This document shows, one piece after another, positions 1,665-55,069 of a DNA stretch of 55,069 nucleotides. Source of the stretch: Candidatus Kerfeldbacteria bacterium RIFCSPLOWO2_02_FULL_42_19. GTDB lineage: Bacteria; Patescibacteriota; Patescibacteriia; HO2-48-17. Position 1 is the first letter of the stretch; each line of letters begins with the position of its first letter. A model generated the notes under the pieces. That model had not been told where the DNA came from and searched no databases. It was given only the letters and a program-made list of their open reading frames with translations. The stretch spans positions 194,080 through 249,148 of the forward strand of contig MHKF01000012.1 in NCBI GenBank assembly GCA_001818315.1, given 5' to 3'. The position numbers were made by a program, and so were the translations under genes.

Positions 1665-1739
1665 TGGTACCAGGGGTGGGATTTGAACCCACGACCAACG
1701 GCTTATGAGTCCGCTGCTCTACCTCTGAGCTACCCTGGC
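1665..1739 (-). tRNA. tRNA with CAT anticodon (elongator Met, or Ile2 if lysidine-modified); CCA encoded
   Basis: The minus strand reads GCCAGGGTAGCTCAGAGGTAGAGCAGCGGACTCATAAGCCGTTGGTCGTGGGTTCAAATCCCACCCCTGGTACCA. It has a 7-bp acceptor stem with G1:T72, a GCTC/GAGC D-stem, a CTCATAA anticodon loop and a GTGGG/CCCAC T-stem with TTCAAAT loop. Confidence 0.85.
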
Positions 1740-1914
1740 GCGGGTCAATTTTGGCTACGGGTTTCGTTCCGATTTAAAAAATCGGAACTGCACCCCTCGC
1801 CAAAATGCCCCTTTGCTCGCCGAAGCGTGCTCCAGACTGTCCGAAAAATGCCAATTTTCAATAATGGAATTTTTGGACAGTCTGTGTGTGCACCTCTGCG
1901 GCTCGCTATGTTTG

Positions 1915-1988
1915 TTGCGGGGGTGGGATTTGAACCCACGGCCTTCTGGTTATGAGCCAGACGAGCTTCCAGACTGCTCCACCCCGCG
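1915..1988 (-). tRNA. initiator-type tRNA-fMet (CAT), CCA not encoded
   Basis: The minus strand reads CGCGGGGTGGAGCAGTCTGGAAGCTCGTCTGGCTCATAACCAGAAGGCCGTGGGTTCAAATCCCACCCCCGCAA. It closely parallels E. coli tRNA-fMet, including the C1/A72 mismatch and the TTCAAAT T-loop. The sequence after discriminator A is CAA, not CCA. Confidence 0.85.
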
Positions 1989-4740: not shown

Positions 4741-4824
4741 GCCGTCGTGGCGGAATTGGTAGACGCGCGGGTCTCAAAAACCCGTGAAGGCAACTTCGTG
4801 TCGGTTCGACTCCGACCGACGGCA
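4741..4824 (+). tRNA. tRNA-Leu (CAA), class II with long variable arm, CCA not encoded
   Basis: GCCGTCGTGGCGGAATTGGTAGACGCGCGGGTCTCAAAAACCCGTGAAGGCAACTTCGTGTCGGTTCGACTCCGACCGACGGCA. Acceptor GCCGTCG/CGACGGC, anticodon stem CGGGT/ACCCG with loop CTCAAAA, T-stem GTCGG/CCGAC. Confidence 0.9.
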
Positions 4825-12073: not shown

Positions 12074-12129
12074 GTTCGTTTGTTCCACCTTCTATCGTTC
12101 TTTGAATATTCATAGAAATTTTCCTTTCT

Positions 12130-12177
12130 GAGGCTCTCAGACAAATCGTTTTGTTTGAGAGCCTCGTTTGTTTTTTT
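12130..12177 (+). terminator. rho-independent terminator after the radical SAM gene
   Basis: GAGGCTCTCAGACA (12130-12143) pairs with TGTTTGAGAGCCTC (12152-12165), 14 bp with one mismatch, followed by GTTTGTTTTTTT. Confidence 0.7.
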
Positions 12178-14069: not shown

Positions 14070-14144
14070 ACGAAAATTTTTCACGTAGGATAACTCAAGG
14101 GACTTTCGACGATCACACCTCCGTTTTTAAAAGTGAATTTTCAT

Positions 14145-14236
14145 CATAGCAAAAGAGGATGAAGACGAGAGCTTTCTCAGCACACTGTGCACTGTCAGTG
14201 CTTCGAAAGTTCTCGTCTTTCTCCTCTTTTGCTTTG
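14145..14236. repeat. long imperfect hairpin, diverged copy of the 44715-44804 element
   Basis: Shares the flank TTTCATCATA, the stem base CAAAAGAGGA/TCCTCTTTTG, the apical stem and a near-identical 14-nt loop with the 44.7-kb copy. The mid-stem differs on both arms in a compensatory way. Confidence 0.7.
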
Positions 14237-14245
14237 CACATTGGA

Positions 14246-14274
14246 TAAGAAACGGTATTCAGGGCGACAGTTCC
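14246..14274. repeat. short intergenic repeat, copy 1 (TAAGAAACGGTATTC...)
   Basis: 15-nt exact match plus 10 of the next 12 nt with 27814-27840. Both copies are intergenic. Confidence 0.5.
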
Positions 14275-14347
14275 TTCATGTAGTTATAACTCAATGGATC
14301 GCTACGTCACAGTGTGCAGGTTGTCTAGCAAAAAGAAAAAGTTGTTC

Positions 14348-18243: not shown

Positions 18244-19137
18244 TCAAATGAAAGCATAGCGCGTCCCTCCGAGTGCCGTGATAATACCTTCACATTCAAG
18301 TTGTGTGAGAGTCGCAAGGAGTTTGTCTTGCGGTAGTCCAGTTTTTTGCATCAGTTCTTCCATACTTTGTTGTGCATCCTTTACAAAACAGGTCAGGAGT
18401 TTCTGTACTTCTGGCTGTTGAGCGAATTGTTTTACTTTCGTTTTGATGATGGTTGCTGTGTGTATTTCAGGGTAGCCAAGTTCAGTGAGTATGTCATTCG
18501 GATGTGTTACAAGAAAAGCCCCGTTTTTGATGAGTGTGTTAGTTCCTGCGCTGAGTGGCGCAAAGATAGTTCCTGGGCATACAAAAACATCTTTGCCGTA
18601 TTCTGCAGCAAGTTTGGCGGTAATAAGCGCTCCACTTTTTATTGAGGCTTCAGTAACGAGGACGCCTTGTGCAAGTCCTGCAATGATGCGGTTTCTCTCC
18701 GGAAAATGTTGAGGATAGCCCGGAGTCCCTGGAGGGTATTCCGAAAGTAGGAGTCCTCCAGATGCAATGATTTTATAAGCAAGCCATATATTGGACGAAG
18801 GCGCAATGCTCGCATCGTCAATTCCTGAACCGAGGACCGCAATTGTTTTGCCTTCATTGTGTAATGTTTCTTTATGTGCCTGTGCATCTGTCCCGAGCGC
18901 CAGACCGCTCACAATAACTATTGTATGAACAAGAAGCGGCGGAATAAAAAGAGATACGAGTTGTTTACCGTATGTCGACATTTTCCGCGAACCTACGAGA
19001 GCAAACATCTTTTGAGATTGTAAGAGTGTGTGATCACCTCGGTAGTACAGTTTTTGTGGAGGATCGTGAATATTTCTCAGTTGCTGAGGATAGATTGAGT
19101 CGTTCGGTGTAATGTATTGGATAGTATTCTGGGTCAT
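18244..19137 (-). CDS. dprA: DNA-processing protein DprA/Smf
   Basis: LVGSRKMSTYGK, GLALGTDAQAH and PERNRIIAGL motifs, plus a C-terminal winged-helix-like tail. Confidence 0.85.
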   Translation of the reverse strand: MTQNTIQYITPNDSIYPQQLRNIHDPPQKLYYRGDHTLLQSQKMFALVGSRKMSTYGKQLVSLFIPPLLVHTIVIVSGLALGTDAQAHKETLHNEGKTIAVLGSGIDDASIAPSSNIWLAYKIIASGGLLLSEYPPGTPGYPQHFPERNRIIAGLAQGVLVTEASIKSGALITAKLAAEYGKDVFVCPGTIFAPLSAGTNTLIKNGAFLVTHPNDILTELGYPEIHTATIIKTKVKQFAQQPEVQKLLTCFVKDAQQSMEELMQKTGLPQDKLLATLTQLECEGIITALGGTRYAFI

Positions 19138-20509
19138 TTTTTGACGTGTTTATTTCCAAAAGAAGGAGGCGTCGGAAAAAGGGAAACCCTACCAATCGGG
19201 TTTTTCGGATACCGAGTTCAATGACAACAAAAATACAGCGGTTGCCCACTGATTTTTTTTGAGAAGTTATTTCCCAAACTTTTGGGGATCAGCTCTTTGA
19301 CGAGCGTGATCTGATCCTCACAAGTTTGGGAGGGAGACGCAAGTGATGCATCTCCCAGCGGATTGAAGGAACAAATTTAGAAATTTAGAGCGAGGCGGTT
19401 GTTGATTGGTGCGTGAAGCATTGAAAGAATGCATTGCCCTTTTCAAGGCTCAAGAAGACTAAGTTCCATGAAAGAAACCTAGAAATCACTTGCAAACAAT
19501 CGCAGCAACACGAGGAGCATACTCCTTCTTCGAAGTAAGGATCAAAGTTACACGTGACATTTCTGTCTTCAAGATCTGACTTGTTTTCTTCTCCTGTGAT
19601 AGAGAAGAAGCAAATTTTGATATAATTTTTACTCTTTATTCAAAGAGAAAAATTTACGTGTGTTTATGACAGGTTACTGCCGTTTTACTCTTACGAGTTC
19701 TTCTGTTTCCCAACAGAAGCCGGGAGCTTCTCTCGAAATCAGTAGATCTCTTGCGAGAGTCAACACAATAGCGTGAGAAGATCAGGAGAACAAGTATCTC
19801 CTCAGTTACGTTCTTTTCTTGCGAGTTTTTGTGGCTTTGGAAAGTCACCAAGAAAAGAAGAGGTATACACCTGCAAACTTTTTGTGACATGTTCCATTGA
19901 GGTTATCTCAGGAATTTTCTCTCAGGGACTGTCCTGAAAGAATTCAGATTTGTACCGGTGAAGGCACCTCTACACGTCACACATGCTTCTTCTCCATTAT
20001 TATCTTTATAAAGTTCTAGATTACTCCAGAACACCCGAAGCAAACTAATCCTGTAAAAGGAATCCCATCTCCTTTTTTGGAAAACTTCTTTCTGATAAAT
20101 CAGTCAGAAGTAACCATACTTTGAAGGCAAGTTTCTTCTTACAAAAAAGTTTTGTGTACGTCTGCGGTTGCAGATAATTTTAGGAGTTCCAATCAACATC
20201 CTTACGCTCCTGCAAGTTCTCTAACAGTGAGTCGTTGATATTCACTTTGCGTTACAGCGCTCACAGGAGCGATGGATGTATTCATTTTCAATGAACCTTT
20301 TTTCAGAGTGATAGTACTCATGATAGCGTCCCTCGAAATACCTGTCAAGATCCTCCATGAGATCGAATTTACATTTCACTTTTTATCTTATTTCAGCAAA
20401 TAAATTGAATTTTTCGATTTTCCTCGCTATGTTGCTGTGGAAAACTTTTGTAATTTTTACCTGTTAAAAATAGCGGGTCTGTGGATAACTTTTTTGGAGA
20501 TGTATCTTC
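19138..20509. other. 1,372-bp ORF-free, hairpin-dense region (candidate large ncRNA or long structured leader of dprA-topA)
   Basis: The only track ORF is an implausible 78-aa reading frame. At least 10 local perfect stems of 5-11 bp lie between 19270 and 19950. There is a promoter-like site on the minus strand at 20348-20320. Confidence 0.35.
20320..20348 (-). promoter_or_regulatory. sigma70-like promoter (TTGACA - 17 nt - TATCAT) pointing into the ORF-free region
   Basis: The minus strand from 20348 to 20320 reads TTGACAggtatttcgagggacgcTATCAT: a perfect -35, a 17-nt spacer and a 5/6 match at -10. Confidence 0.45.
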
Positions 20510-41357: not shown

Positions 41358-43991
41358 TTAGGCGCATTTGGAATATCCACACGAACCACACGTTGTGCAA
41401 CCTTCTACGAATGCGAGGATTTGTCCGCACAATGGGCATTGTGGCGCGATACCAAGGTCCGCAAGCGAAGTTTTGGTTTGTACCTGTATTTGTGACGCAG
41501 CAGCAAATGCAGGGGTAACCTTCTTGACTTGCGTTTGTTCGGGGAGAGTTATGTTTTCACCGAACGATACAAAAGTTTCGCTGAAAGTATTTGCTTGTCT
41601 TTGTTGTGGTACAGCTGATGATTTTTGTGATTGTTCTTCGCTCGCTGTTGTTTTTGGTACGTTGACGTTTGTTGTGAGTTGCATTTGTAATTGCTTGTGT
41701 TGCGTGAGATCTTCTTCAAGAATTTGAGCAATCGCATCGGGAATCGAAAGGACCATGCCTTCTTTACGCCAATAAGGGAGCGGCCCTCGAATGCCTTTAA
41801 TTTGATCAATAATCACTTGCGGCGCGATACCGGAGCGAAGTGCTACAGAGATGAGTCGGCATATTGCTTCGGATTTTGCTGCATAAAATCCACCTGTTTT
41901 TCCAATCGTTGCAAAGACCTCAAATGGTTCCCCTTGGTCATCGTGATTAATCGTGATAAAAAGTGATCCGTAGCCCGTTTCGATCTTATAGGTCGCTCCG
42001 TGCATTTTATGTGGTCGTTTTCGTGGTGTAATGTATCGTGGTTGTTGTTCTGTAACTTTCGCTTTTTTTTCAGAAGGAGCATCTTTTTTGAGCATCAGCA
42101 CTTGTTCGTTGCGCGATCCATCTCGATACACAGTCCCACCTTTACATCTCAATTTATAGAGGAGTTGATAAAATTCGCCAACCTGTTTTTCTGTGTAATG
42201 ATTGGGAAGATTTGAAGTTTTAGAGATAGAACTATCCACCCATCGTTGGATTGCTGCTTGCACTTTGGCGTGATCTTCAGGTGCGAGGTTCATGGCATTG
42301 ACGAAGTAAGCAGGAAGTTGTTGACTAGGATGCTTTTTCTGCCAATCTTTGACGATTTGTACTTGTTCTTTGTGTGTGCCAAGTCGACTTTTGCGGAAGT
42401 AGGTCCAACTATAAAATGGTTCAATACCAGTAGCAGTTCCGACCATGGTTGCTACTGTGCCGGTTGGCGCTTGGGTGTTGAGAGTGACATTGCGGATACC
42501 TTTTTCTCGCACGAGCGTTCGTATATCCTCTGGCATACTCTTCATAAAGCCGCTCTGTAAAAATTTTTCGGTATTTAACTTCGGAAATGCACCTTTTTCT
42601 TCTGCAATCTGAGAGCTCATGGTATATGACTCGACGGCAATGAATTGGTACAGTTTGTCCATAAATCGTATCGATTCATCTGATCCATAGCGTAACCCAA
42701 GTTGTATGAGGAGTTCGGCAAGTCCAATCGTGCCAATACCGACGCGTCGTTCGCTCTTTTGTTGCTTTTCGTTTTCTTCAAAGAAATACATTGTAGCGTC
42801 GATAACATTGTCGGCAAATCGTACCGCATAGTGAATAGTTTTTTTGAGTTTTTCCCAATCTACGTCAGTGCTGATTTCATTTGCAAATCGGGAAAGATTG
42901 ATATGTGAGAGATTGCACACGGCCCACGCTGGCAAGGGTTGCTCACCGCACGGATTCGTGGCTATGAGCGGTGCGAAATACCAAGAATTTGACATGCGAT
43001 TTGTTCGTTCTCTAAACCATAATCCAGGTTCTGCGCTTCCCCAGGCACTTTTTATGATTTGCTGCCATATCTCACGTGCTTTGAATTTTTTATATACATT
43101 GAGTTTTTTTCCTTTACTGATCCAATTCGCGAGATTCCCGTCCCAAAGCTCGTCATATTCCGGGTCTTGAGTATCGGGAAATTTAAATTCCCAATCCTTG
43201 TCTTCTTCTACTGCTTTCATAAAAGCGTCAGAAATGCCGATACTGAGATTGGCGTTCGTAATTTTTCCCATTTCTTCTTTGACAGTGATAAATTCCAAAA
43301 GATCTGGATGCCAATCGTCCATAATGAGCATCAGCGCCCCGCGCCGGCTTCCTCCTTGTTCAATAAGACCAGTAACGAAACTATAGAGTGCTCCCCAGGA
43401 AACCGCTCCTGATGATCTGCCGTTCACACCTTTGACATAGGATCGTTTTGGTCTCAGGCTTGAGATATTAATACCAACTCCACCGCCACGCGACATAATT
43501 TCCGTCATTTGAAAGAGCGTGTCGATAATACCCCTGCGTGAATCGTGTGGCGAAGGAATCACGTAGCAGTTGTAGCAGGTGAGTTGTTGGTCGGTACCGG
43601 CAGCTGCGAGAATTCTTCCGCCGGGAACAAATTTCCATTCGTTCAGAAGCCATTCAAAATTTTTTGTCCATTCACGTCGTTTTATTTCCGTTGCTTCTAC
43701 AGAAGCAATGCCTTTCGCAACTCTTCGGATCATTTGTTCTGGTTCAGTTTCTACTGGTTTATCAATATGTTCTTTTTTTTGCTCTATAACGGCACCATCT
43801 TTGAGCTGAATGCGCACGGAGTCTCCGGATAGTATTTCTTGCACATATCCTACTTCTCGTTGACCTGTTTTTGGATCTATGCAAACGATAATTTTATCCC
43901 CCTTTCGCATATCTTTTCGTTGTTGATCTTTGAGGGCGTAGCGATCAAGAAAAATTTTTTCTCCGAGGTCAGAGAGGGGATTGTGAAGCAT
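41358..43991 (-). CDS. nrdJ: class II (adenosylcobalamin-dependent) ribonucleotide reductase
   Basis: LDRYALKD N-terminus, NPCGEQPLPAWAVCNLSHINLS active-site loop, and a C-terminal CPLCG...CTTCGSCGYSKC zinc ribbon. Confidence 0.92.
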   Translation of the reverse strand: MLHNPLSDLGEKIFLDRYALKDQQRKDMRKGDKIIVCIDPKTGQREVGYVQEILSGDSVRIQLKDGAVIEQKKEHIDKPVETEPEQMIRRVAKGIASVEATEIKRREWTKNFEWLLNEWKFVPGGRILAAAGTDQQLTCYNCYVIPSPHDSRRGIIDTLFQMTEIMSRGGGVGINISSLRPKRSYVKGVNGRSSGAVSWGALYSFVTGLIEQGGSRRGALMLIMDDWHPDLLEFITVKEEMGKITNANLSIGISDAFMKAVEEDKDWEFKFPDTQDPEYDELWDGNLANWISKGKKLNVYKKFKAREIWQQIIKSAWGSAEPGLWFRERTNRMSNSWYFAPLIATNPCGEQPLPAWAVCNLSHINLSRFANEISTDVDWEKLKKTIHYAVRFADNVIDATMYFFEENEKQQKSERRVGIGTIGLAELLIQLGLRYGSDESIRFMDKLYQFIAVESYTMSSQIAEEKGAFPKLNTEKFLQSGFMKSMPEDIRTLVREKGIRNVTLNTQAPTGTVATMVGTATGIEPFYSWTYFRKSRLGTHKEQVQIVKDWQKKHPSQQLPAYFVNAMNLAPEDHAKVQAAIQRWVDSSISKTSNLPNHYTEKQVGEFYQLLYKLRCKGGTVYRDGSRNEQVLMLKKDAPSEKKAKVTEQQPRYITPRKRPHKMHGATYKIETGYGSLFITINHDDQGEPFEVFATIGKTGGFYAAKSEAICRLISVALRSGIAPQVIIDQIKGIRGPLPYWRKEGMVLSIPDAIAQILEEDLTQHKQLQMQLTTNVNVPKTTASEEQSQKSSAVPQQRQANTFSETFVSFGENITLPEQTQVKKVTPAFAAASQIQVQTKTSLADLGIAPQCPLCGQILAFVEGCTTCGSCGYSKCA

Positions 43992-44076: not shown

Positions 44077-44553
44077 TTACTCCCTTTCTTTTATTTTCTG
44101 CTTTGTTTTGAGTAATTTCAAAGCTTCTTGGAATGCTTCGATGTCTTGAAAATCATTATAGACTGAAACAAATCGAATATACGCGACCTTATCGGTTCGA
44201 CGGAGATGTTTTACGATAATTGCTCCAATTTCATGGCTTGTTATTTTATCTTGTGTGCTTTTGAGTTGGATATCGCGTTCAATGCGTGCTAAAAGTGCAT
44301 TGAATCGTTCACTACTTATTGGGCGTTTTTCGAGTGCTTTTTTGAGTCCTGCGCTGATTTTTTCTTTTTGATATGCTTCCTCTCGGTTGTCATTTTTAAT
44401 GACGCGAAGATTGAGAATTTCCATTTCTTCCATCGTCGAAAAACGAAACGAGCATTTCATGCATTCACGACGTCTTCGAATCGTGAGACCTTCATTGGCT
44501 TCGCGGGATTCCAGGACGCGGGTATCAGTTTTGAGACACGATGGGCAGCGCAT
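44077..44553 (-). CDS. nrdR: transcriptional repressor NrdR
   Basis: MRCPSC...C..C zinc ribbon followed by an ATP-cone domain. Confidence 0.93.
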   Translation of the reverse strand: MRCPSCLKTDTRVLESREANEGLTIRRRRECMKCSFRFSTMEEMEILNLRVIKNDNREEAYQKEKISAGLKKALEKRPISSERFNALLARIERDIQLKSTQDKITSHEIGAIIVKHLRRTDKVAYIRFVSVYNDFQDIEAFQEALKLLKTKQKIKERE

Positions 44554-44555
44554 AG

Positions 44556-44604
44556 ACTCTATCGATAGTGTTTACTATGCTGAGTATAACACAATGGGTA
44601 GAGA
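44556..44604 (-). promoter_or_regulatory. two NrdR-box-like palindromes flanking an extended -10 (TGtTATACT) upstream of nrdR
   Basis: Box 1 at 44556-44571 is ACTCTATCGATAGTGT (10-bp perfect palindromic core, 13/16 to the recalled consensus acaCwAtATaTwGtgt). Box 2 at 44589-44604 is ACACAATGGGTAGAGA (11/16). The -10 TATACT lies at 44588-44583 on the minus strand. Confidence 0.45.
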
Positions 44605-44714
44605 TTTGAGAATTTTAAGAATCTCTGCTAATCTCCGCTGTACTTTTTTTTCCGTTCGTTTTGTATGCGGATTTTTTTGTTGAGAACATGAAGATGTTTG
44701 TGGATAACTTTCAT

Positions 44715-44804
44715 CATAACAAAAGAGGAGGAGGATAGGACTTTCGAAGCACACTGTGCATTGTTAGTGCTTCGAAAGTCCTATCCTCCTCCTCTTTTGT
44801 TATG
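44715..44804. repeat. perfect 38-bp inverted repeat with 14-nt loop
   Basis: 44715-44752 is the exact reverse complement of 44767-44804, checked base by base. A homolog lies at 14145-14236. Confidence 0.9.
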
Positions 44805-44880
44805 CGCGTTGCACAAACATGCAGGGTCTGTCACGAAATTCTACGATTTCACAGGCGGAAGCGTGTTCGTCGACAAACCC

Positions 44881-46167
44881 TTACATCATTTTTTTTCGGA
44901 TGAAGGTAGGAATTTCTAAATCTTCCTCAAGTTTTGTGGGTTTCGTCTCGTGTGTTATGGGTCGTGCTTCAATCGTTTCTTCTTTGCCAACAGTTTGCCT
45001 TCGAAATCCTCCGGCGTCTTTTGAGAGCGGTTCAGCCTCTTCTATTTTAATCTTCGAAGAAAATGGCGATTTTACAGCTGGTTTCACTTTGCGAGTCGCT
45101 TGTTTTCCTTGTGGTCCGAAACCCGTAGCCACGACTGTAATCTTGATTTCATCTTGTAAACTATCATCGATCACTGACCCAAAAATAATGCGTGCATTTG
45201 GATCAGTTGTTTCTGTAATAACTCGTGCCGCTTCATTGACTTCATACATCCCAAGGTTGGAACTTCCTGAGATAGTAAACAAGATCCCTTTTGCTCCATC
45301 AATAGACATTTCGAGCAGCGGACTATCGATAGCTGCTTTCGCCGCTTCTACTGCTCGGTTTTCCCCAGAAGCAGTTCCGATACCCATGAGAGCTGAACCA
45401 GCGTTTTCCATGACAGATTTTACATCAGCAAAATCAACGTTGATAAGACCTGGGAGAGTGATCAAATCTGAAATTCCTTGTACCCCTTGTCTTAAAACGT
45501 CATCCACAATTTTGAAGGCATCAAGCAGTGATGTTTTTTTGTCAATAATTTGGAGGAGGCGATCATTGGGGATAGTAATGATCGTATCGACTTTTGATTG
45601 GAGTTCTGTGAATGCATTCTCTGCAATCGCTTTTCGTTGTTCACCTTCGAATGCAAATGGTTTCGTTACGATAGATACGGTGAGTGCTCCTAAGTCTCTC
45701 GCGAGTTCCGCAATCACAGGCAGCGACCCTGATCCTGTGCCTCCGCCGAAGCCAGCGGTTAAAAAGACCATGTCTGCTCCTTTGAGGATTTTTTCAATGT
45801 CTTCTATGTTTTCTTCAGCTGCTCTGCGACCGACATCCGGATCCATACCTGCTCCGAGACCACGTGATGTATTCTGGCCAATGTGAACACGTACTGGGGC
45901 TTTTGAATGATGCAGCGATTGTGAATCAGTATTCACAGCAATCAATTCAATGCCTTTGATTTGTGCTTCTACCATGCGATTGATCGCCGCACAGCCAGCT
46001 CCCCCCGCTCCGAGCACTTTAATTTTTGCAAATGTTTCAATTTCTGGTTTCACCTCCGTTGGTTTATTGTTATGCGAACGTCCATTGTTTTGAGACACAG
46101 ATGTTCGTTTATTTTCGTTTGCCACCTCGTTTGTTATTAAAAGTAAGTTTGATAGGAATATATGCAT
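44881..46167 (-). CDS. ftsZ: cell-division GTPase FtsZ
   Basis: IKVLGAGGAGCAAINRM, GGGTGSG, and a C-terminal conserved peptide (DLEIPTFIRKK). Confidence 0.95.
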   Translation of the reverse strand: MHIFLSNLLLITNEVANENKRTSVSQNNGRSHNNKPTEVKPEIETFAKIKVLGAGGAGCAAINRMVEAQIKGIELIAVNTDSQSLHHSKAPVRVHIGQNTSRGLGAGMDPDVGRRAAEENIEDIEKILKGADMVFLTAGFGGGTGSGSLPVIAELARDLGALTVSIVTKPFAFEGEQRKAIAENAFTELQSKVDTIITIPNDRLLQIIDKKTSLLDAFKIVDDVLRQGVQGISDLITLPGLINVDFADVKSVMENAGSALMGIGTASGENRAVEAAKAAIDSPLLEMSIDGAKGILFTISGSSNLGMYEVNEAARVITETTDPNARIIFGSVIDDSLQDEIKITVVATGFGPQGKQATRKVKPAVKSPFSSKIKIEEAEPLSKDAGGFRRQTVGKEETIEARPITHETKPTKLEEDLEIPTFIRKKMM

Positions 46168-46335: not shown

Positions 46336-46493
46336 GCGAGAAAGGGAGGGCATAGGTTTTTTTCAAATGCGTTGTGATAAGTCACTGTATCAGATACAGT
46401 GGAAAGTGTGCCCTAAAACAACTCTTCCAAACACGATCATTCATGTTTGGGTATCACAGCATTTGAAAAAAACCTATGCCCTCCCTTTCTCGC
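46336..46493. repeat. 35-bp perfect inverted repeats enclosing 88 nt (MITE-like or large RNA stem-loop) in the ftsA-ftsZ spacer
   Basis: GCGAGAAAGGGAGGGCATAGGTTTTTTTCAAATGC at 46336-46370 is the exact reverse complement of 46459-46493. The stem extends by TGTGATA/TATCACA, and the spacer contains the palindrome CACTGTATCAGATACAGTG. Confidence 0.85.
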
Positions 46494-50545: not shown

Positions 50546-53500
50546 TTATGGATTCATTTGTAATGTATTGTGTATAATTGTCGTTTGTGGTGCCTGATCC
50601 GCATCAACGTCATTTCTTAACCCGTAATTAAAGCAATTACAGGAAGAACCTGGAACTCCGTCACAAGGGTTCATCGCCGGATTATCGCTCTCAAGCCCCC
50701 CATCTCCATCATTATCATAACGTACCCAGGACACATCATCATAGCGGTATTCAAGATTGGCAAATACCCAGGCCGCTTGCCCGTTCGGTGTAACTTTATA
50801 TTGATAGACGCGCGATTTTCCTGATGGAATGCCGGCAGAATTTCCAATACTTGGACAAACGTAGGCTTGCGCGTCCGGTTTCCAGCATGTTTCTGCTTCG
50901 GCATCAAATCCTTGTGTCGCTGGACAATTCGTTTGTGGGTCATCGAAGCTATTGATTGGATCTATGGGAATAAATGAAAGACTTGGTCCTAAAGTTTCAG
51001 CCCATGAATTCCATTTACTGGTGGTTTGGTACCGTAAGAAAGTACCCGCTTTCAAATCAGGATAACGTCTGTTTTGTACGTACGAATCACGTAAGAGCGC
51101 GGCCATGGCGCCAAGTTCAGTAACACGTTTGGTGTCGCGTACCAGTTCGTCTTTAAGATCCACATTGACATTGGTATTGAAGCTCCAATTTGCAATCATT
51201 TCTCTAAATATCTTTTGCGTTTCATTATTTGCTCCTTCGCTATAGGAGATAATGTAGATATTGCTGAAGAGATTTTTCAAACCGCCGTTATCCGCCGCGT
51301 CATACTGATTCGTGCCCGCAATATAGACAGTTCGACCGACCTGAACCGCTTCATATCCATTGACTCCTCCAGAAATTATAGAGTAGTTCGCAACCGGGTT
51401 TGGCGCATGTTCTTTATACCATTGCGCCGGATTGAGTCTTTCTGGATTTGCAAACACGCGTACGCCAATGCCATCGTGCGTTCCGCCACCTTGCGTAAAA
51501 AGATATTCGCGATAAACACCTTGTGGCAGTCCAGTGCTTTTGACGAGTGTATTATTAAAAGTTGATTCAGCAGAATATTCGTCTTTGCAGTAGCGAATAA
51601 TCTGATGGAGAGGCGTGAGAGAGCCTGCGTCATCGCCATTGCCATCAATATCAGAAAATGCCCATGGATTCTGGCAATAGAAAACATAGATCGGTAGCGA
51701 GCCGAATTTGGGTGGATCGCTTGCGTACCCATCATTCGTTGGACGTGCGTAGGCAAATACTTCCACTTCGCCATTTTGATTCAGGCCATTAGTATTGATA
51801 GGCAAAACATTTGTTGTGCTTGCTTCTGCGTTTATGATCGTTTGTCCTGCAGGTGTGACTTCCCAATCCCATCGCCAGCTATACCCTGGTATTGGAGCGA
51901 TAGTAAAGCCTTCTCGGGATTTTCCTTGTGCAAAAACGACACCAGTTTGATTGCGCTCAAAGAATGTATCATGAGAATCAGCTGGCGGATGTAATGGATC
52001 AAACGCTATTGGATCTTGCGGGATGTAGGGAGTGAGTTTGAGATTAGCTAGTTCGCAAAAGCTATCGGTTGTTGTAAACTCGAAGTTCTTATTATGGAAA
52101 CCGCTTGCGTTCAAATCTGGTCCGTTCATGCCAATGTTGTTTTTACTTACAACACCGTTTGGTACGTTATCCGTCAGAATATCATCTCCTTTCCAGACTG
52201 CTTTGAGTGCGGTATTTCCGGGCAGCGCCTCTGTTGTGGGAATAAATTGCGCAACAGTTTTTCTATCCCTCTCTGAACCTGTGTGATATACCCGGAGTTG
52301 GCCGATGTTACTGATATTTTCGTAGGTATTACCGACAGCACGAATAAAGCCCGTGTCGGTTGCGACGATGTCTTTAAAGAAGATGTCGGTTGTGCTAGAG
52401 AGTGTCCAAGGGCCGCCAAGATACATCGCGATGACGCCGTTATCGCCGGAAATCCACGTTCGTCGTGTCGTTGGGAGTATTTGAACGCCCGTAAGATTCG
52501 TTGATTGGAATGCTGGATCAGGAGGTATGATTTGCCAACCGTTTGGTTGTTGATCGTTAAAGAGTACCATGCCGTTATTGCCGACTGCATAGAGTACGGG
52601 CGCTGTGGCGAGAGCGTGAATTGCTTTGAGATTTTCTGGTGTGCCGCCTTCAAATTCTTTGCTATATCCTTCGCCTGTTTTAAACCGAACGATCGTTCCT
52701 TTATTTCCGATCATCCAGATATTATCTGGTATTGCAGTTACATCATTGAGATGTTCGGCTGTTATCGTCCCTTGTGGATTTTCGTTTTGCCAAATAACAC
52801 CAGTAAATCGGAGCATCGTTCCATTGTCGCCGACTGCCCAGACATTATTAGGAGCTGTTGCTGCGGCCCCTCGTAGATGGGTTGTCACGCCGCTGTTTTC
52901 TTTGCTCCAGACACCGCCAGCGAGTTTGAGAATCGTTCCATTGTCGCCGACTGCCCATGCTTGGGTTGCGTCGAGTACAAAGACGTCGTTGAGTTCTTCT
53001 GTTGTTGGACTTACTTCCGTTTGCCAATTCGCTCCATCGTATTTGAGAATCGTGCCATTACCTCCTACAGCGATAATGAGATTTTCGGCAAAGGAATCAA
53101 TAGCATTGAGGTGTTCGCTGACAGGAGAAACGTGACTACCGTCGCTTGGGTTATAGATGCGACTCCCAACGCCTTCTTTTAAGAGTTGAAAGTTATCATT
53201 TGCAAATGTGATACTTGCTGGATTCATTTCGCGACTGAAGGTGAATTCTAATACGGCATTTTTGCAGACGTATGATCCATCGGTTGGTAGGCTGGATTCA
53301 ACAATAGGACGAGCGACACAACAGAGTTGTGCTTGACCTGCCACAACACCGCAGCCATTGGTTATGAAATCACCACATTGAGCGTCATTCGTGCAGCCGC
53401 AGTAAAGACCTCGTGTGCCGCCTGTGCATGTTTCGAGATTTGGTACACACGTGAGTCCTGGGAGCCAGCTGTCACGTTCTGCAATATCGGGATTGCAGCA

Positions 53501-55069
53501 GCACCGGCAGTTATCGACACCGGGAGGCGGGTCGTCGTCGCCTGATCGACACTGATATCCTGCGCTGCAATTTGAGAATTGCGCTTCCTGACACGCCGGG
53601 AAGTTTTCGTCGATACATTGCGTTCCAGCACCGCCTGGGTTTGGACAAAATGTTGGTGCATCTTCAATGGAGGTACAACTTCCGGCATTGCAGCAATTAG
53701 AAATGCAGTCAACGTTGTTCACACATGCTCCTCCTGGGTCGCCCGGACAGGCTGCGTTACTGATGCAGATATTGTTTCGACAGCAGCCTGGAGCGCCGCA
53801 ATCATTGTGATCGTCGCAAGTGATGACCAGATCGATGGCATTACTGGCGCAGGAATCATTCGTGATTTTTACTGGTCCGCTGATACTTACAGGGTTCGCT
53901 TGAGCTTCGACAGAAGTTTGTATCCACTGCGGATAATTTATTGCTTGTTCCCATTGTTGCGGATCTTGTTGTTTTGTGAAAACGACGTAATCTTTGGCCG
54001 GAATATTGCGTGTTGCGCCAAAATTGTCGCCACTGAGCGTTGTTGTATAGGTATTGCGGTCAAAAGGAGCAAGGTCACAGAATAATGGAATACCATCTGG
54101 TCCTGCGAGTGCTATGGGATTGTTATTTTCGTCAACACAAAGATTGGTTATCGGGAATTCTTTTTTGTTACTCGCGAGATCTGTTGGTGTGCCATGCAAT
54201 CGGTTATTCACCCAAATTTCGGAGAGTGCGTCACGTGTGAGCCCCTCGGGAACTCGCGTGATAATGCGTGAGTTTCGCCAACTAGCGCCACCACATACCA
54301 TTTCGGATATCAATTCATTTCCGTTCGTTGTGTCGCGGAATTTCACAACGTCTTCTGCGGATTCATTCGTACTTCCAAAGTAGCAACCAGTGATTGTGAC
54401 GGATTGCGAAATAGGACCTTGGATGGGTGAAAGTGTTGTAATATATGGTGTGCATGTGCCGTTCACGCAGCTCGATGTTCCTGGACCGCATGCTTCGCAA
54501 TCGGTATCGGCCGTACAGAAAGCAAAATTCACTCGGAAAGGCGCGTCGTCATCCTGACCTTCGAGTGTTGACTGAATGCGCGCTGTGCCTTCATTATCGA
54601 CAGTATCGCCGACTGTTCGCGCAGTTGCTTGGTATTGATCGAGTGCACCTGTCATGTCCGCTACGTCTTTGCCGGCTGGATCGAGCGCTTGCCATTGATA
54701 TTGACCGTTATAGAGCGTTGGATTAATGAGTGTACAGTTCGGTCCGATGGGTATGGATTCGTAATTTTCTGTCTGAGGATGCGCATTATGTATGACGGGT
54801 TGATTGGGCGCTGTTGAATGCACGGAAACATTTTTTACTGGACAGGTTCCAGGATCGTTTTTTGTTTGGAAGTGCGCAGCAAAGTCTGCTCGCATATTGA
54901 CTCCGCCGCAGAGTCCTCCAGCAGTTTCGCACGCCGCTGGATTCGTTGGACAACTCCCCGGTACATTCAGAATTCGGCCATCACTAGTGAAACACGTATT
55001 AGGATCGCTTTGAACGTCTTTTGAAATAAAGAGTTCATACCATGTATTTTGTGCAAGGGTTCCTGGGAA
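50546..55069 (-). CDS. giant secreted/surface protein (5' end outside the window): Cys-rich modules, IPT/TIG-like domain, 7-blade beta-propeller-like repeats, large C-terminal domain
   Basis: The track ORF is 50546-54895. I translated the same frame upstream by hand and it stays open to 55069 (...CPTNPAACETAGGLCGGVNMRADF...), so the protein exceeds 1,500 aa. Repeats of the form AVGDNGTILK/WAVG lie at about 52280-53110. A Cys-rich block lies at about 53305-53830. Confidence 0.8.
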   Translation of the reverse strand, partial: FPGTLAQNTWYELFISKDVQSDPNTCFTSDGRILNVPGSCPTNPAACETAGGLCGGVNMRADFAAHFQTKNDPGTCPVKNVSVHSTAPNQPVIHNAHPQTENYESIPIGPNCTLINPTLYNGQYQWQALDPAGKDVADMTGALDQYQATARTVGDTVDNEGTARIQSTLEGQDDDAPFRVNFAFCTADTDCEACGPGTSSCVNGTCTPYITTLSPIQGPISQSVTITGCYFGSTNESAEDVVKFRDTTNGNELISEMVCGGASWRNSRIITRVPEGLTRDALSEIWVNNRLHGTPTDLASNKKEFPITNLCVDENNNPIALAGPDGIPLFCDLAPFDRNTYTTTLSGDNFGATRNIPAKDYVVFTKQQDPQQWEQAINYPQWIQTSVEAQANPVSISGPVKITNDSCASNAIDLVITCDDHNDCGAPGCCRNNICISNAACPGDPGGACVNNVDCISNCCNAGSCTSIEDAPTFCPNPGGAGTQCIDENFPACQEAQFSNCSAGYQCRSGDDDPPPGVDNCRCCCNPDIAERDSWLPGLTCVPNLETCTGGTRGLYCGCTNDAQCGDFITNGCGVVAGQAQLCCVARPIVESSLPTDGSYVCKNAVLEFTFSREMNPASITFANDNFQLLKEGVGSRIYNPSDGSHVSPVSEHLNAIDSFAENLIIAVGGNGTILKYDGANWQTEVSPTTEELNDVFVLDATQAWAVGDNGTILKLAGGVWSKENSGVTTHLRGAAATAPNNVWAVGDNGTMLRFTGVIWQNENPQGTITAEHLNDVTAIPDNIWMIGNKGTIVRFKTGEGYSKEFEGGTPENLKAIHALATAPVLYAVGNNGMVLFNDQQPNGWQIIPPDPAFQSTNLTGVQILPTTRRTWISGDNGVIAMYLGGPWTLSSTTDIFFKDIVATDTGFIRAVGNTYENISNIGQLRVYHTGSERDRKTVAQFIPTTEALPGNTALKAVWKGDDILTDNVPNGVVSKNNIGMNGPDLNASGFHNKNFEFTTTDSFCELANLKLTPYIPQDPIAFDPLHPPADSHDTFFERNQTGVVFAQGKSREGFTIAPIPGYSWRWDWEVTPAGQTIINAEASTTNVLPINTNGLNQNGEVEVFAYARPTNDGYASDPPKFGSLPIYVFYCQNPWAFSDIDGNGDDAGSLTPLHQIIRYCKDEYSAESTFNNTLVKSTGLPQGVYREYLFTQGGGTHDGIGVRVFANPERLNPAQWYKEHAPNPVANYSIISGGVNGYEAVQVGRTVYIAGTNQYDAADNGGLKNLFSNIYIISYSEGANNETQKIFREMIANWSFNTNVNVDLKDELVRDTKRVTELGAMAALLRDSYVQNRRYPDLKAGTFLRYQTTSKWNSWAETLGPSLSFIPIDPINSFDDPQTNCPATQGFDAEAETCWKPDAQAYVCPSIGNSAGIPSGKSRVYQYKVTPNGQAAWVFANLEYRYDDVSWVRYDNDGDGGLESDNPAMNPCDGVPGSSCNCFNYGLRNDVDADQAPQTTIIHNTLQMNP

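What the first reader, a model, noticed from the sequence alone, without database searches (positions are those of the whole stretch)
44715..44804. Perfect 38-bp inverted repeat (90-nt hairpin) between ftsZ and nrdR that is not a canonical terminator
44715-44752 (CATAACAAAAGAGGAGGAGGATAGGACTTTCGAAGCAC) is the exact reverse complement of 44767-44804. The two arms are separated by the 14-nt loop ACTGTGCATTGTTA. I checked every base.

No T/U tract follows the stem on either strand, so it does not look like an ordinary intrinsic terminator. It sits 77 nt after the ftsZ stop and about 160 nt before the nrdR start on the minus strand.

A 38-bp perfect duplex in a transcript is an RNase III-class substrate. 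As DNA it could extrude as a cruciform or be a protein-binding palindrome. A diverged homolog exists 30 kb away (14145-14236), so this is a dispersed element family.
Basis: seen in the sequence. Interest (0 to 1): 0.7.

Follow-up and report, generated by a model that had tools for sequence, protein, structure and literature searches.

The report
Palindromic repeat element at gene ends
The perfect 38-bp hairpin after ftsZ is real, but it is the core of a roughly 175-bp palindromic repeat scattered just after gene ends in two Kerfeldbacteria (CPR) genomes, and it most likely acts as a two-way transcription terminator; this is a new family of an already familiar kind.

Summary
Arms 44715-44752 and 44767-44804 are perfectly complementary, with a 14-nt loop, and are identical in three independent assemblies.

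The hairpin is the core of a larger element of about 175 bp (44705-44880) that starts right after the ftsZ stop codon. I found 8 copies in total:
- 3 in this genome (A, B at 14114-14283, D just upstream of the window).
- 3 in Candidatus Kerfeldbacteria RIFCSPHIGHO2_02_FULL_42_14.
- 2 on other metagenome contigs.

Full copies have terminal inverted repeats (GGnACnGTCGCCGAATAC), suggestive 4-bp duplications and an invariant apical module. Compensatory change is heavy: 16 of 33 pairs.

Every copy lies just 3' of a gene, and 4 lie between convergent genes. The outer stem is an A-tract/T-tract, so a G/C-rich stem is followed by TTTTGTTAT on both strands.

The family is absent from Rfam, phages, plasmids and 80 related Patescibacteria loci. 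Relatives have ordinary short terminators after ftsZ.

Best reading: a MITE/SPRITE-like interspersed palindrome used as a bidirectional terminator or 3'-end hairpin. RNase III cleavage is possible but untested. This is a new member of a known kind, of moderate interest.

The parts
44705..44880 (.). Whole repeat element, copy A. It starts directly after the ftsZ stop codon (TAA|GGGTTTGTCGACGAACACGC, read on the - strand) and ends at the conserved TTTCATCATAAC arm.
   Evidence: Flanks are homologous to the arms of other copies; the junction with the stop codon is shown.
44715..44752 (.). 5' arm of the perfect 38-bp inverted repeat. It has an A-tract (CATAACAAAAG, 44715-44725) followed by the purine-rich, G/C-rich stem.
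44753..44766 (+). 14-nt loop ACTGTGCATTGTTA. It is asymmetric, and together with the inner stem AGCAC/GTGCT it is invariant in all 8 copies.
44767..44804 (.). 3' arm of the inverted repeat. The G/C-rich part ends at 44794; the T-tract TTTTGTTAT lies at 44795-44803. The mirror T-tract for - strand transcripts is the complement of 44716-44724.
44832..44880 (-). Terminal inverted repeat plus outer 'Y-type' arm (GGGTTTGTCGACGAACACGCTTCCGCCTGTGAAATCGTAGAATTT). In this copy it is followed by an 'X-type' inner arm, so copy A is rearranged relative to canonical copies.
   Evidence: Local alignments to the arms of copies D, B, L009a and L010.
14114..14283 (.). Whole repeat element, copy B, with TIRs GGGACTTTCGACGATCAC ... 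GGGCGACAGTTCC. It is the only hairpin in the convergent parB/rel intergenic region.
14145..14236 (.). Core hairpin of copy B: 39-nt arms, 85% complementary, loop ACTGTGCACTGTCA, and the family's 2x2 TC/TC internal loop.
46336..46493 (.). Element C, a second perfect inverted repeat with 35-bp arms (GCGAGAAAGGGAGGGCATAGGTTTTTTTCAAATGC) around an 88-nt branched insert. It lies between the ftsA stop and the ftsZ start and is a distant relative of the family (38 bits to model R1).
44583..44612 (-). Promoter-like site for nrdR (TTCTCA, 18 nt, TG-n-TATACT), downstream of the hairpin.
   Evidence: a consensus match only
44556..44571 (.). NrdR-box-like palindrome (ACACTATCGATAGAGT on the - strand) immediately upstream of the nrdR start codon (44551-44553).
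   Evidence: 3 mismatches to ACACWATATATWGTGT; 44 of 100 shuffles also give at least one such match in the window, so it is weak on its own

Best explanation
The hairpin is the core of one copy of a previously undescribed family of small palindromic interspersed repeats in Candidatus Kerfeldbacteria (Patescibacteria/CPR). Full copies are about 170-190 bp.

A full copy has these parts:
- Terminal inverted repeats, GG(N)AC(N)GTCGCCGAATAC.
- Two non-identical arms, which I call X and Y.
- An outer stem made of an A-tract plus AGAGGAGGAAGA.
- A short variable but complementary segment.
- An invariant apical module, CTTTC-TC-AGCAC / 14-nt loop / GTGCT-TC-GAAAG.

Shown: the unit has been copied to unrelated loci in at least two deeply diverged species. 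It always lands just after a stop codon. Its two arms co-evolve.

Inferred: it spread as a non-autonomous, MITE-like mobile element that inserts at T(A/T)AT-type sites, which often overlap TAA stop codons. It is retained there because it works as a bidirectional Rho-independent terminator and 3'-end protective hairpin when transcribed from either side. In that reading a G/C-rich stem is followed by UUUUGYU.

At this locus it would end the ftsA-ftsZ transcript, and nrdR would start from its own promoter 100-130 nt further on.

The perfection of copy A has a likely cause. Its inner stem is CGAA/TTCG where the family has a TC/TC mismatch. This is best explained by hairpin-templated (quasipalindrome) correction of one arm from the other.
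For: Family and anatomy. An exact-pattern scan of JGI metagenomes returned 5 true copies and 2 chance hits. A covariance model found copy D in the same genome (L095:6240-6345) and the distant relatives C and L009:1537-1612. Alignments show homologous arms and TIRs outside the hairpin.

No genes are shared between the host contigs and the window, so only the element is similar, at 77-90% nt identity. The L009/L012 contig belongs to Kerfeldbacteria RIFCSPHIGHO2_02_FULL_42_14. Apart from its own species' near-identical entries, its best CTP synthase match in the database is 67%.

Structure. 95.8% of cells are paired. 16 of 33 pairs carry changes on both sides, against 4.1 +/- 1.6 in shuffles and 2-4 for slid partners. 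Within a copy, pairing is 85-100% Watson-Crick. Between copies, identity in the same columns averages 67%.

Position. All 8 copies lie 3' of a gene: 4 between convergent genes, 4 between co-directional genes, none between divergent genes. Element ends lie 0, 1, 1, 4 and 13 nt from a stop codon in 5 copies.

Terminator layout. T-tracts follow the G/C-rich stem on both strands of every copy, with 5-8 T in 10 nt. There is no other terminator-like hairpin in the ftsZ-nrdR or parB/rel spacers. A promoter-like site for nrdR lies downstream of the hairpin. Relatives with 71-73% FtsZ identity lack the element and have hairpins at the same position after ftsA and ftsZ: short hairpins with T-runs in L093 and L094, a longer imperfect hairpin after ftsZ in L013.

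Mobility hints. 4-bp direct repeats flank three copies: TTAT at L012, TAAT at L010, TAAT at D, each with a 1-2 nt offset. Assemblers break contigs inside the element at 4 loci.
Against: - There are no transcript data, so termination is inferred from layout and position only.
- The stem (27-38 bp) and loop (14 nt) are far outside the usual terminator dimensions. The consensus terminator scan does not call it.
- The arms continue to pair beyond the T-tract, which a plain terminator does not need.
- With 8 copies, the enrichment at convergent sites and the absence from divergent sites are not significant. Background intergenic length is 27% convergent and 16% divergent.
- No empty site, no autonomous element with matching TIRs and no transposase was found in the DNA available. 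The direct repeats are short, A/T-rich and need a 1-2 nt offset.
- Copies are old (55-80% identical), so there is no sign of recent transposition.
- Arm-to-arm conversion can mimic compensatory evolution without any selection for structure.
- The invariant apical module is unexplained by a terminator role. For 5 of the 8 copies it was the search pattern itself, so its conservation is partly ascertained.
Confidence: 0.6

Rival explanations
1. Selfish or neutral interspersed repeat with no host function. It is a MITE-like palindrome that survives only where insertion does least harm, just after stop codons. The T-tracts are simply part of its sequence.
For: The same argument was made for the pneumococcal BOX, RUP and SPRITE repeats, which are enriched at convergent sites (PMC3049150). 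Orientation of the core and arms relative to transcription is mixed. Copies are old and diverged. The family is missing from close relatives, which manage with ordinary terminators.
Against: Pairing is kept at 85-100% while copies have drifted to about 67% identity. The apical module is invariant across two deeply diverged species, which neutral decay does not predict, although arm conversion could explain the pairing. Where the element is present, no other terminator-like hairpin is seen in the spacer.
Confidence: 0.2
2. RNase III processing site. The 38-bp perfect duplex in a read-through ftsA-ftsZ-nrdR transcript is cut by RNase III, which separates or destabilises the flanking messages. 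Element C on the other side of ftsZ would do the same, so that ftsZ mRNA is excised or tuned.
For: The duplex is well beyond the roughly 20 bp that bacterial RNase III needs (established knowledge). ftsZ is bracketed by two perfect inverted repeats of 35 and 38 bp. Correia elements of Neisseria are cut by RNase III at their inverted repeats (PMC10969869).
Against: No transcript or cleavage data exist. Most family members have mismatches and bulges, and the perfect stem of copy A is the exception. If termination at the T-tract is efficient, little full hairpin would sit inside a longer transcript. No rnc gene was examined in this genome. This reading is compatible with the best explanation rather than exclusive of it.
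Confidence: 0.1
3. DNA-level recognition site. The invariant, asymmetric apical module and the TIRs are bound by a dedicated protein. This could be a domesticated transposase as in REP/RAYT systems, or a nucleoid or segregation protein. The palindrome would then act as double-stranded or cruciform DNA.
For: The apical 38 nt are far more conserved than the rest of the stem. G-U and A-C mismatches show no strand bias (8 versus 5), and the core is found in both orientations relative to transcription and to its own arms. That argues against a strand-specific RNA role.
Against: No candidate protein is known. No transposase, integrase or reverse transcriptase is encoded in the window or the flanks examined. 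The REP signature (a short palindrome with a 5' GTAG) is absent. Conservation of the apical module is partly due to how the copies were found.
Confidence: 0.07
4. Locus-specific regulatory RNA: an attenuator or leader controlling nrdR, or a small RNA gene.
For: It lies 161 nt upstream of nrdR. The Y arm carries an outward-facing extended -10-like motif (TGTTATGAT) that points towards nrdR.
Against: The same element sits next to unrelated genes: parB/rel, rpmA/pyrG, rpoD/TrmB-like and an M32 peptidase. There is no Rfam match. Orientation relative to neighbouring genes is not consistent. nrdR has its own promoter-like site and an NrdR-box-like palindrome closer to its start.
Confidence: 0.02
5. 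Assembly artefact, or an integron attC site.
For: Palindromes can arise from chimeric assembly, and several contigs end inside the element. attC sites are imperfect palindromes that begin right after a stop codon.
Against: The sequence is identical in three independent assemblies, with unique genes on both sides. The attC core sites (RYYYAAC ... GTTRRRY) are not conserved in the family, the neighbours are housekeeping genes, and no integrase is nearby.
Confidence: 0.01

Closest known systems
[quoted passage not shown] 2011, PMC3049150)
   Same: Both are small interspersed repeats whose transcript is a long duplex followed by a U-rich tract. Both have A-run/T-run ends. Both lie close to CDS 3' ends and often between convergent genes. 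In both, the stem and tract are longer than in ordinary terminators of the host, no matching IS is known, and the target duplication is unresolved.
   Different: The phylum and the sequence are unrelated. The Kerfeldbacteria element is larger (about 175 bp versus a short element with an 18-bp duplex). It has additional arms with proper 18-nt TIRs outside the terminator-like core. It is symmetric, with T-tracts on both strands, and has an invariant apical module.
Correia elements (Neisseria) and ERIC elements (Enterobacteria): palindromic MITEs
   Same: Both are 100-190-bp imperfect palindromes with TIRs. Both are intergenic, co-transcribed with neighbours and fold into long hairpins. They are reported to act on transcripts through RNase III or RNase E cleavage, to carry promoters and possibly to terminate transcription (PMC10969869).
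   Different: There is no sequence similarity. No TA duplication and no IHF site were tested here. Copy density looks lower, at about 1 per 10-20 kb in the DNA sampled. Cleavage and promoter activity are untested.
REP/BIME elements with RAYT transposases (Enterobacteria, Pseudomonas)
   Same: Both are extragenic palindromes at gene 3' ends, often between convergent genes. REPs have been credited with 3'-end stabilisation and termination (bioRxiv 10.64898/2026.03.23.713779, abstract seen).
   Different: REPs are 20-40 nt with a conserved 5' GTAG and no TIRs. That signature is absent here, and no RAYT-like gene was seen.
Bidirectional intrinsic terminators between convergent genes
   Same: The layout matches on both strands: A-tract, G/C-rich stem, loop, stem, T-tract. 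The position is right too, between convergent genes or after the last gene of a unit.
   Different: Ordinary terminators are unique sequences with 5-17-bp stems and 3-8-nt loops, for example 12129-12166 in this window. This one has a 27-38-bp stem, a 14-nt loop and extra paired arms, and it is a repeated, evidently copied unit.

Membership tests
MITE (miniature inverted-repeat transposable element) | Small (under about 300 bp), non-coding, able to fold into a stable stem-loop | tested here: met
   Size is 170-190 bp. Only short chance ORFs overlap it. Free energy is -72 to -111 kcal/mol for 120-220 nt.
MITE (miniature inverted-repeat transposable element) | Terminal inverted repeats | tested here: met
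   GG(N)AC(N)GTCGCCGAATAC is present at both ends of L012, L009a, L010, D and B. It is degenerate in A, L009b and L011.
MITE (miniature inverted-repeat transposable element) | Multiple dispersed copies at non-homologous loci | tested here: met
   8 copies lie next to unrelated genes in at least 2 species. A whole-genome count was not possible.
MITE (miniature inverted-repeat transposable element) | Target-site duplication | tested here: inconclusive
   4-bp direct repeats are seen at L012 (TTAT), L010 (TAAT) and D (TAAT), each needing a 1-2 nt offset. Copy B matches 3 of 4, and L009a shows none. The flanks are A/T-rich, so chance is not excluded.
MITE (miniature inverted-repeat transposable element) | Presence/absence polymorphism (an empty site), or a parent IS with the same TIRs | tested here: inconclusive
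   All contigs carrying the same nrdR or pyrG protein have the element. The TIR motif occurs only inside element copies in about 1.5 Mb of fetched loci. No transposase was found in the window. Only a small part of each genome could be examined.
REP / BIME (RAYT-associated) | 20-40-nt imperfect palindrome preceded by a conserved GTAG tetranucleotide | tested here: not met
   The unit is 170-190 bp and has no conserved GTAG at the foot of the hairpin.
Intrinsic (Rho-independent) terminator | G/C-rich hairpin immediately followed by a U-rich tract | tested here: met
   ...CCTCCTC is followed by TTTTGTTAT (7 T in 10 nt) on both strands of copy A. The other copies have 5-8 T in 10 nt. This holds only if the outer A:T pairs are read as the tract.
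Intrinsic (Rho-independent) terminator | Usual dimensions: stem about 5-17 bp, loop 3-8 nt | tested here: not met
   The stem is 27 bp without the A:T tract (38 bp with it) and the loop is 14 nt. The consensus scan does not call it.
Intrinsic (Rho-independent) terminator | Located at the 3' end of a transcription unit; transcripts end in the U-tract | not testable with these tools
   The position criterion is met: all 8 copies lie 3' of a gene. Transcript ends need RNA data.
RNase III substrate | Double-stranded RNA of about 20 bp or more that is actually transcribed and cleaved | not testable with these tools
   The length criterion is met with a 38-bp perfect duplex. Transcription and cleavage are unknown.
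Integron attC site | Conserved R''/R' core sites (RYYYAAC ... GTTRRRY), a cassette context and a nearby integrase | tested here: not met
   Copy A has near-matches (CATAAC ... GTTATG), but the other copies do not (GCAAAAG, CCAAAAG and others). Neighbours are housekeeping genes and no integrase is present.
Any Rfam family | Score at or above the family's gathering threshold | tested here: not met
   The window has only three tRNA hits at gathering threshold. At the locus there are only generic hairpin matches to miRNA precursors, far below threshold: 43 bits against 103.

The most novel reading that the evidence does not exclude
The invariant, asymmetric apical module (CTTTC-TC-AGCAC, a 14-nt loop ACTGTGCAYTGTNA, then GTGCT-TC-GAAAG) is the recognition site of a dedicated trans-acting protein. 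That would make this a REP/RAYT-like or RNA-punctuation system peculiar to Kerfeldbacteria. The protein could be a domesticated recombinase that keeps the palindromes perfect and flips their cores. Alternatively it could be an RNA-binding or RNase activity that, with element C, brackets and tunes the ftsZ message. Either would be more than a passive terminator or MITE.
Probability: 0.15. Interest if true: 0.6.

Novelty: new member of a known kind. Interest (0 to 1): 0.4.

Why it matters
Patescibacteria (CPR) have small, streamlined genomes, and I found no description of interspersed palindromic repeats in them in the literature searched.

A repeat family that sits on stop codons and looks like a two-way terminator would matter in four ways:
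- It would show that mobile palindromes can supply transcription punctuation even in about 1-Mb genomes.
- It gives a concrete sequence motif for annotating transcript ends in Kerfeldbacteria.
- It explains recurrent contig breaks in their metagenome assemblies.
- It offers a natural example of arm-to-arm correction and nested flipping in palindromes.

It is not a new principle. Pneumococcal SPRITE, Neisseria Correia elements and enterobacterial REP/ERIC elements are the precedents.

Tried and rejected
- Rfam, whole window at gathering threshold and the two loci at permissive E-values: only tRNAs and sub-threshold generic hairpin (miRNA precursor) matches.
- Genome-contig scan with the apical pattern: 0 hits, so neither host genome is in that collection.
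- Covariance model R1 against 80 ftsZ loci of related Patescibacteria (1.3 Mb): no copy. Long hairpins of any sequence are rare there, with 3 found.
- The closest FtsZ relatives at 71-73% identity (L013, L093, L094) lack the element at the orthologous site. L013 does have a hairpin with the TCTCAGC...GCTTCGA motif right after ftsZ. With 0.3 such hits expected by chance in the DNA searched, I do not build on it.
- Viral contigs (3 patterns), the phage collection and the plasmid collection: no match.
- Search for an empty site among contigs encoding the identical nrdR or pyrG: none, all the same population. Extending the window to the right failed because the giant protein is not on record with my coordinates.
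- Search for a strand or orientation rule: G-U versus A-C mismatches, core orientation versus transcription, and arm order all give no consistent bias.
- Statistics of convergent, co-directional and divergent placement: the trend is in the expected direction, but n = 8 is too small.
- A conserved small ORF starting at the ATGATGAAA of the Y arm: reading frames differ (6 to 30 codons) and copy D lacks the ATG, so I rejected it.
- attC, a locus-specific nrdR attenuator, TIGR arrays and DNA-uptake sequences were considered and rejected. The reasons are missing core sites, the dispersed distribution, the lack of a tandem array, and the low copy density.

Full report
OBSERVATION. The inverted repeat is exactly as described. 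Arms 44715-44752 and 44767-44804 are 38 nt and 100% complementary, separated by the 14-nt loop ACTGTGCATTGTTA. As RNA, either strand folds at about -72 kcal/mol, against -25 +/- 3.4 for dinucleotide shuffles (z = -14, 0 of 200 shuffles as good). It is not an assembly artefact. The same sequence, between the same unique genes, occurs in three independent assemblies, and two further contigs simply stop inside the hairpin. ftsZ (44881-46167, -) ends 76 nt before it and nrdR (44077-44553, -) starts 161 nt after it. A class II ribonucleotide reductase gene follows nrdR. The second copy at 14145-14236 is also real.

ORGANISM. The window matches NCBI contig MHKG01000023.1 (GCA_001818335.1). It also matches a 320-kb ENA scaffold and GCA_001818735.1 at 99.9% or more. 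The nearest species representative is Candidatus Kerfeldbacteria RIFCSPHIGHO2_12_FULL_48_17, with 71% FtsZ identity. No closer relative exists among 5.8 billion proteins; the next best hits are 73%. The host is therefore a CPR/Patescibacteria bacterium from groundwater.

A DISPERSED FAMILY LARGER THAN THE HAIRPIN. An exact search for the apical motif in JGI metagenomes gave five more hairpins of the same build and two chance hits. Three of the five lie on one 32.7-kb contig. That contig belongs to Candidatus Kerfeldbacteria RIFCSPHIGHO2_02_FULL_42_14: its CTP synthase is 100% identical to that genome's, and the next best match in the database is 67%. A covariance model built from seven copies found an eighth, copy D, in the window's own genome 3.7 kb upstream of the window start. 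It also found two looser relatives. One is element C at 46336-46493, a perfect 35-bp inverted repeat around an 88-nt branched insert, between ftsA and ftsZ. The other is a perfect 34-bp hairpin at L009:1537-1612. The host contigs share no genes with the window, so only the element is similar, at 77-90% nt identity over up to 150 nt.

ANATOMY. Aligning the flanks shows that the copied unit is about 170-190 bp. It consists of:
- Terminal inverted repeats, GG(N)AC(N)GTCGCCGAATAC.
- An outer stem, A-tract plus AGAGGAGGAAGA.
- A 5-6-bp variable but complementary segment.
- The apical module, CTTTC-TC-AGCAC / loop / GTGCT-TC-GAAAG.

Copy A spans about 44705-44880 and begins on the base after the ftsZ stop codon. 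Its arms are rearranged, with a Y-type outer arm followed by an X-type inner arm. Relative to the arms, the core is inverted in L009a and L010 compared with A, B and D. Recombination or template switching between the arms of a palindrome would produce exactly this.

PAIRING IS MAINTAINED. On the 8-copy alignment, 95.8% of cells are paired. 16 of 33 pairs carry changes on both sides, against 4.1 +/- 1.6 after shuffling and 2-4 when partners are slid. Each copy keeps 85-100% Watson-Crick pairing, while copies are only 55-80% identical to each other (mean 67%) in the stem columns that were not part of the search pattern. Five copies have a 2x2 TC/TC internal loop; copies A, D and L009b lack it. 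Copies A and D carry fully paired versions there (CGAA/TTCG and CCGAA/TTCGG). That fits correction of one arm from the other. Such arm-to-arm conversion could also generate 'compensatory' changes without selection, so the covariation shows that the palindrome is maintained but not by which force. G-U versus A-C mismatches show no strand bias (8 versus 5).

WHERE THE COPIES SIT. All eight lie just 3' of a gene. Four lie between convergent genes: parB/rel, a 635-aa ORF/123-aa ORF pair, rpmA/pyrG, and rpoD/TrmB-like. Four lie between co-directional genes: ftsZ>nrdR, upstream of rpmA, after an M32 peptidase, and after a PMT-type glycosyltransferase. None lies between divergent genes. With eight copies this is a trend, not a statistic; background intergenic length is 27% convergent and 16% divergent. 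In five copies an element end lies 0, 1, 1, 4 or 13 nt from a stop codon. Three copies are flanked by 4-bp direct repeats (TTAT, TAAT, TAAT), allowing a 1-2 nt offset. This hints at insertion into T(A/T)AT sites that overlap TAA stops, but it is not proof.

WHAT IT MOST LIKELY DOES. Those 11 bp are CATAACAAAAG on one arm and CTTTTGTTATG on the other. Read as RNA from either side, a 27-bp G/C-rich stem (...CCUCCUC) is followed at once by UUUUGUUAU and preceded by the matching A-tract. The same holds for both strands of every copy, with 5-8 T in the next 10 nt. That is the design of a bidirectional intrinsic terminator, with an oversized stem and loop.

Three context observations agree with this:
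- The ftsZ-nrdR and parB/rel spacers contain no other terminator-like hairpin.
- A promoter-like site with an extended -10 (44612-44583) and an NrdR-box-like palindrome (44556-44571) lie between the hairpin and nrdR.
- The nearest relatives lack the element and have hairpins at the same position after ftsA and ftsZ: short hairpins with T-runs in L093 and L094, a longer imperfect hairpin after ftsZ in L013.

My best reading is a MITE-like palindromic repeat that is tolerated, and probably used, as a two-way terminator and 3'-end hairpin. The family, its anatomy, its placement and the co-evolution of the arms are shown. Mobility and termination are inferred.

RIVALS. A purely selfish repeat with no function is the main alternative. 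A DNA-level protein site would explain the invariant apical module and the lack of strand bias, but no candidate protein is known. A locus-specific nrdR regulator is excluded by the dispersed distribution. An attC site and an assembly artefact are excluded by missing core sites and by independent assemblies.

COMPARISON WITH KNOWN ELEMENTS. The closest functional analogue is pneumococcal SPRITE. It is an interspersed repeat with an 18-bp duplex and a U-rich tract and AAAA/TTTT ends. It lies close to CDS 3' ends, is strongly enriched between convergent genes, and has no known parent IS (PMC3049150). In architecture (TIRs, a 100-190-bp palindrome), the element resembles Correia and ERIC MITEs. 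It fails the REP definition because it is not a short palindrome and has no GTAG. It matches nothing in Rfam, the phage collection, the plasmid collection or IMG/VR. Literature searches for palindromic repeats or MITEs in Patescibacteria/CPR returned nothing relevant.

VERDICT. This is a new repeat family, in a phylum where I found none described, but of a well-known kind. Interest is moderate (0.4). What remains unexplained is the invariant asymmetric apical module and why ftsZ is bracketed by two perfect long inverted repeats.

Noticed in passing
window 46336-46493: A second perfect inverted repeat (35-bp arms, 88-nt insert folding into three small hairpins; -105 kcal/mol, z = -13.5) lies between the ftsA stop and the ftsZ start. 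ftsZ is therefore bracketed by two perfect long palindromes. Its stem (…AAAGGGAGGGCATAGGTTTTTTTCAAATGC) resembles the family stem. No Rfam match.
   Followed up: partly
window 44556-44571 and 44583-44612: An NrdR-box-like palindrome (ACACTATCGATAGAGT on the - strand) lies immediately upstream of the nrdR start codon, which suggests autoregulation. A promoter-like site (TTCTCA, 18 nt, TGTTATACT) lies just upstream of it. The box has 3 mismatches to the consensus, and such a match is not rare by chance (44 of 100 shuffles).
   Followed up: partly
L013:11584-11681 and L013:17823-17984 (Kerfeldbacteria RIFCSPHIGHO2_12_FULL_48_17): The nearest relative genome has its own, unrelated family of long imperfect palindromes (47-66-nt arms, 74-77% complementary). 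The two copies are similar to each other, and one lies in the ftsZ-nrdR spacer. Palindromic interspersed repeats may be a general feature of Kerfeldbacteria.
   Followed up: no
L013:11302-11328: About 50 nt after the ftsZ stop in the nearest relative, a hairpin carries the same asymmetric TCTCAGC...GCTTCGA motif as the family's inner stem. About 0.3 such matches are expected by chance in the 1.45 Mb searched, so this may be an ancient remnant or a coincidence.
   Followed up: partly
L009:1537-1612 (= L098:16901-16989): A perfect 34-bp hairpin with an 8-nt loop has an inner stem (TTTTTTCAAGACAC) like that of element C. It lies about 50 nt after one gene's stop and inside the called 5' end of the next 249-aa gene, whose start is therefore probably mis-called.
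   Followed up: no
L004, L005, L097, L100, L102 (contig ends): Contigs from several metagenome assemblies end inside or at copies of the element. The repeat is a recurrent cause of fragmentation in Kerfeldbacteria assemblies.
   Followed up: partly
Y arm of the element: window 44705-44716 (- strand TGTTATGAT), window 14138-14148, L010, L009a, L095 copy D: The Y arm carries an outward-facing extended -10-like motif (TGnTATGAT; TATAAT in copy D). It points towards nrdR in copy A and towards rpmA in L009a, but antisense into the neighbouring gene in copies B, D and L010. Promoter activity is unverified.
   Followed up: no
window 18244-19137 (-) and 19272-19331: A DprA (DNA-processing protein A, natural transformation) gene lies next to topA. 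A 24-bp imperfect hairpin sits just upstream of it.
   Followed up: no
L085:11244-11295: In another Patescibacteria genome, a 26-bp perfect palindrome with no loop lies directly after ftsZ. Its sequence is unrelated to the family.
   Followed up: no
window 1668-1988 (-) and 4741-4824 (+): Three tRNA genes are present. A 28-nt imperfect inverted repeat (1748-1806) lies between the two adjacent ones.
   Followed up: no
window 50546-54895 (-) and beyond the window end: A very large ORF is called as 2217 residues in one assembly and 1758 in another. It runs off the window end, and the exact 1449-aa reading from the window is not on record. Gene models therefore differ between assemblies.
   Followed up: no
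window 41358-43991 (-) and downstream genes: The class II (B12-dependent type) ribonucleotide reductase is followed by a CobA/CobO/BtuR-type cobalamin adenosyltransferase gene and by DUF4430 and DUF6580 genes. This looks like a compact nrdR-RNR-cobalamin handling cluster directly after the cell-division genes.
   Followed up: no
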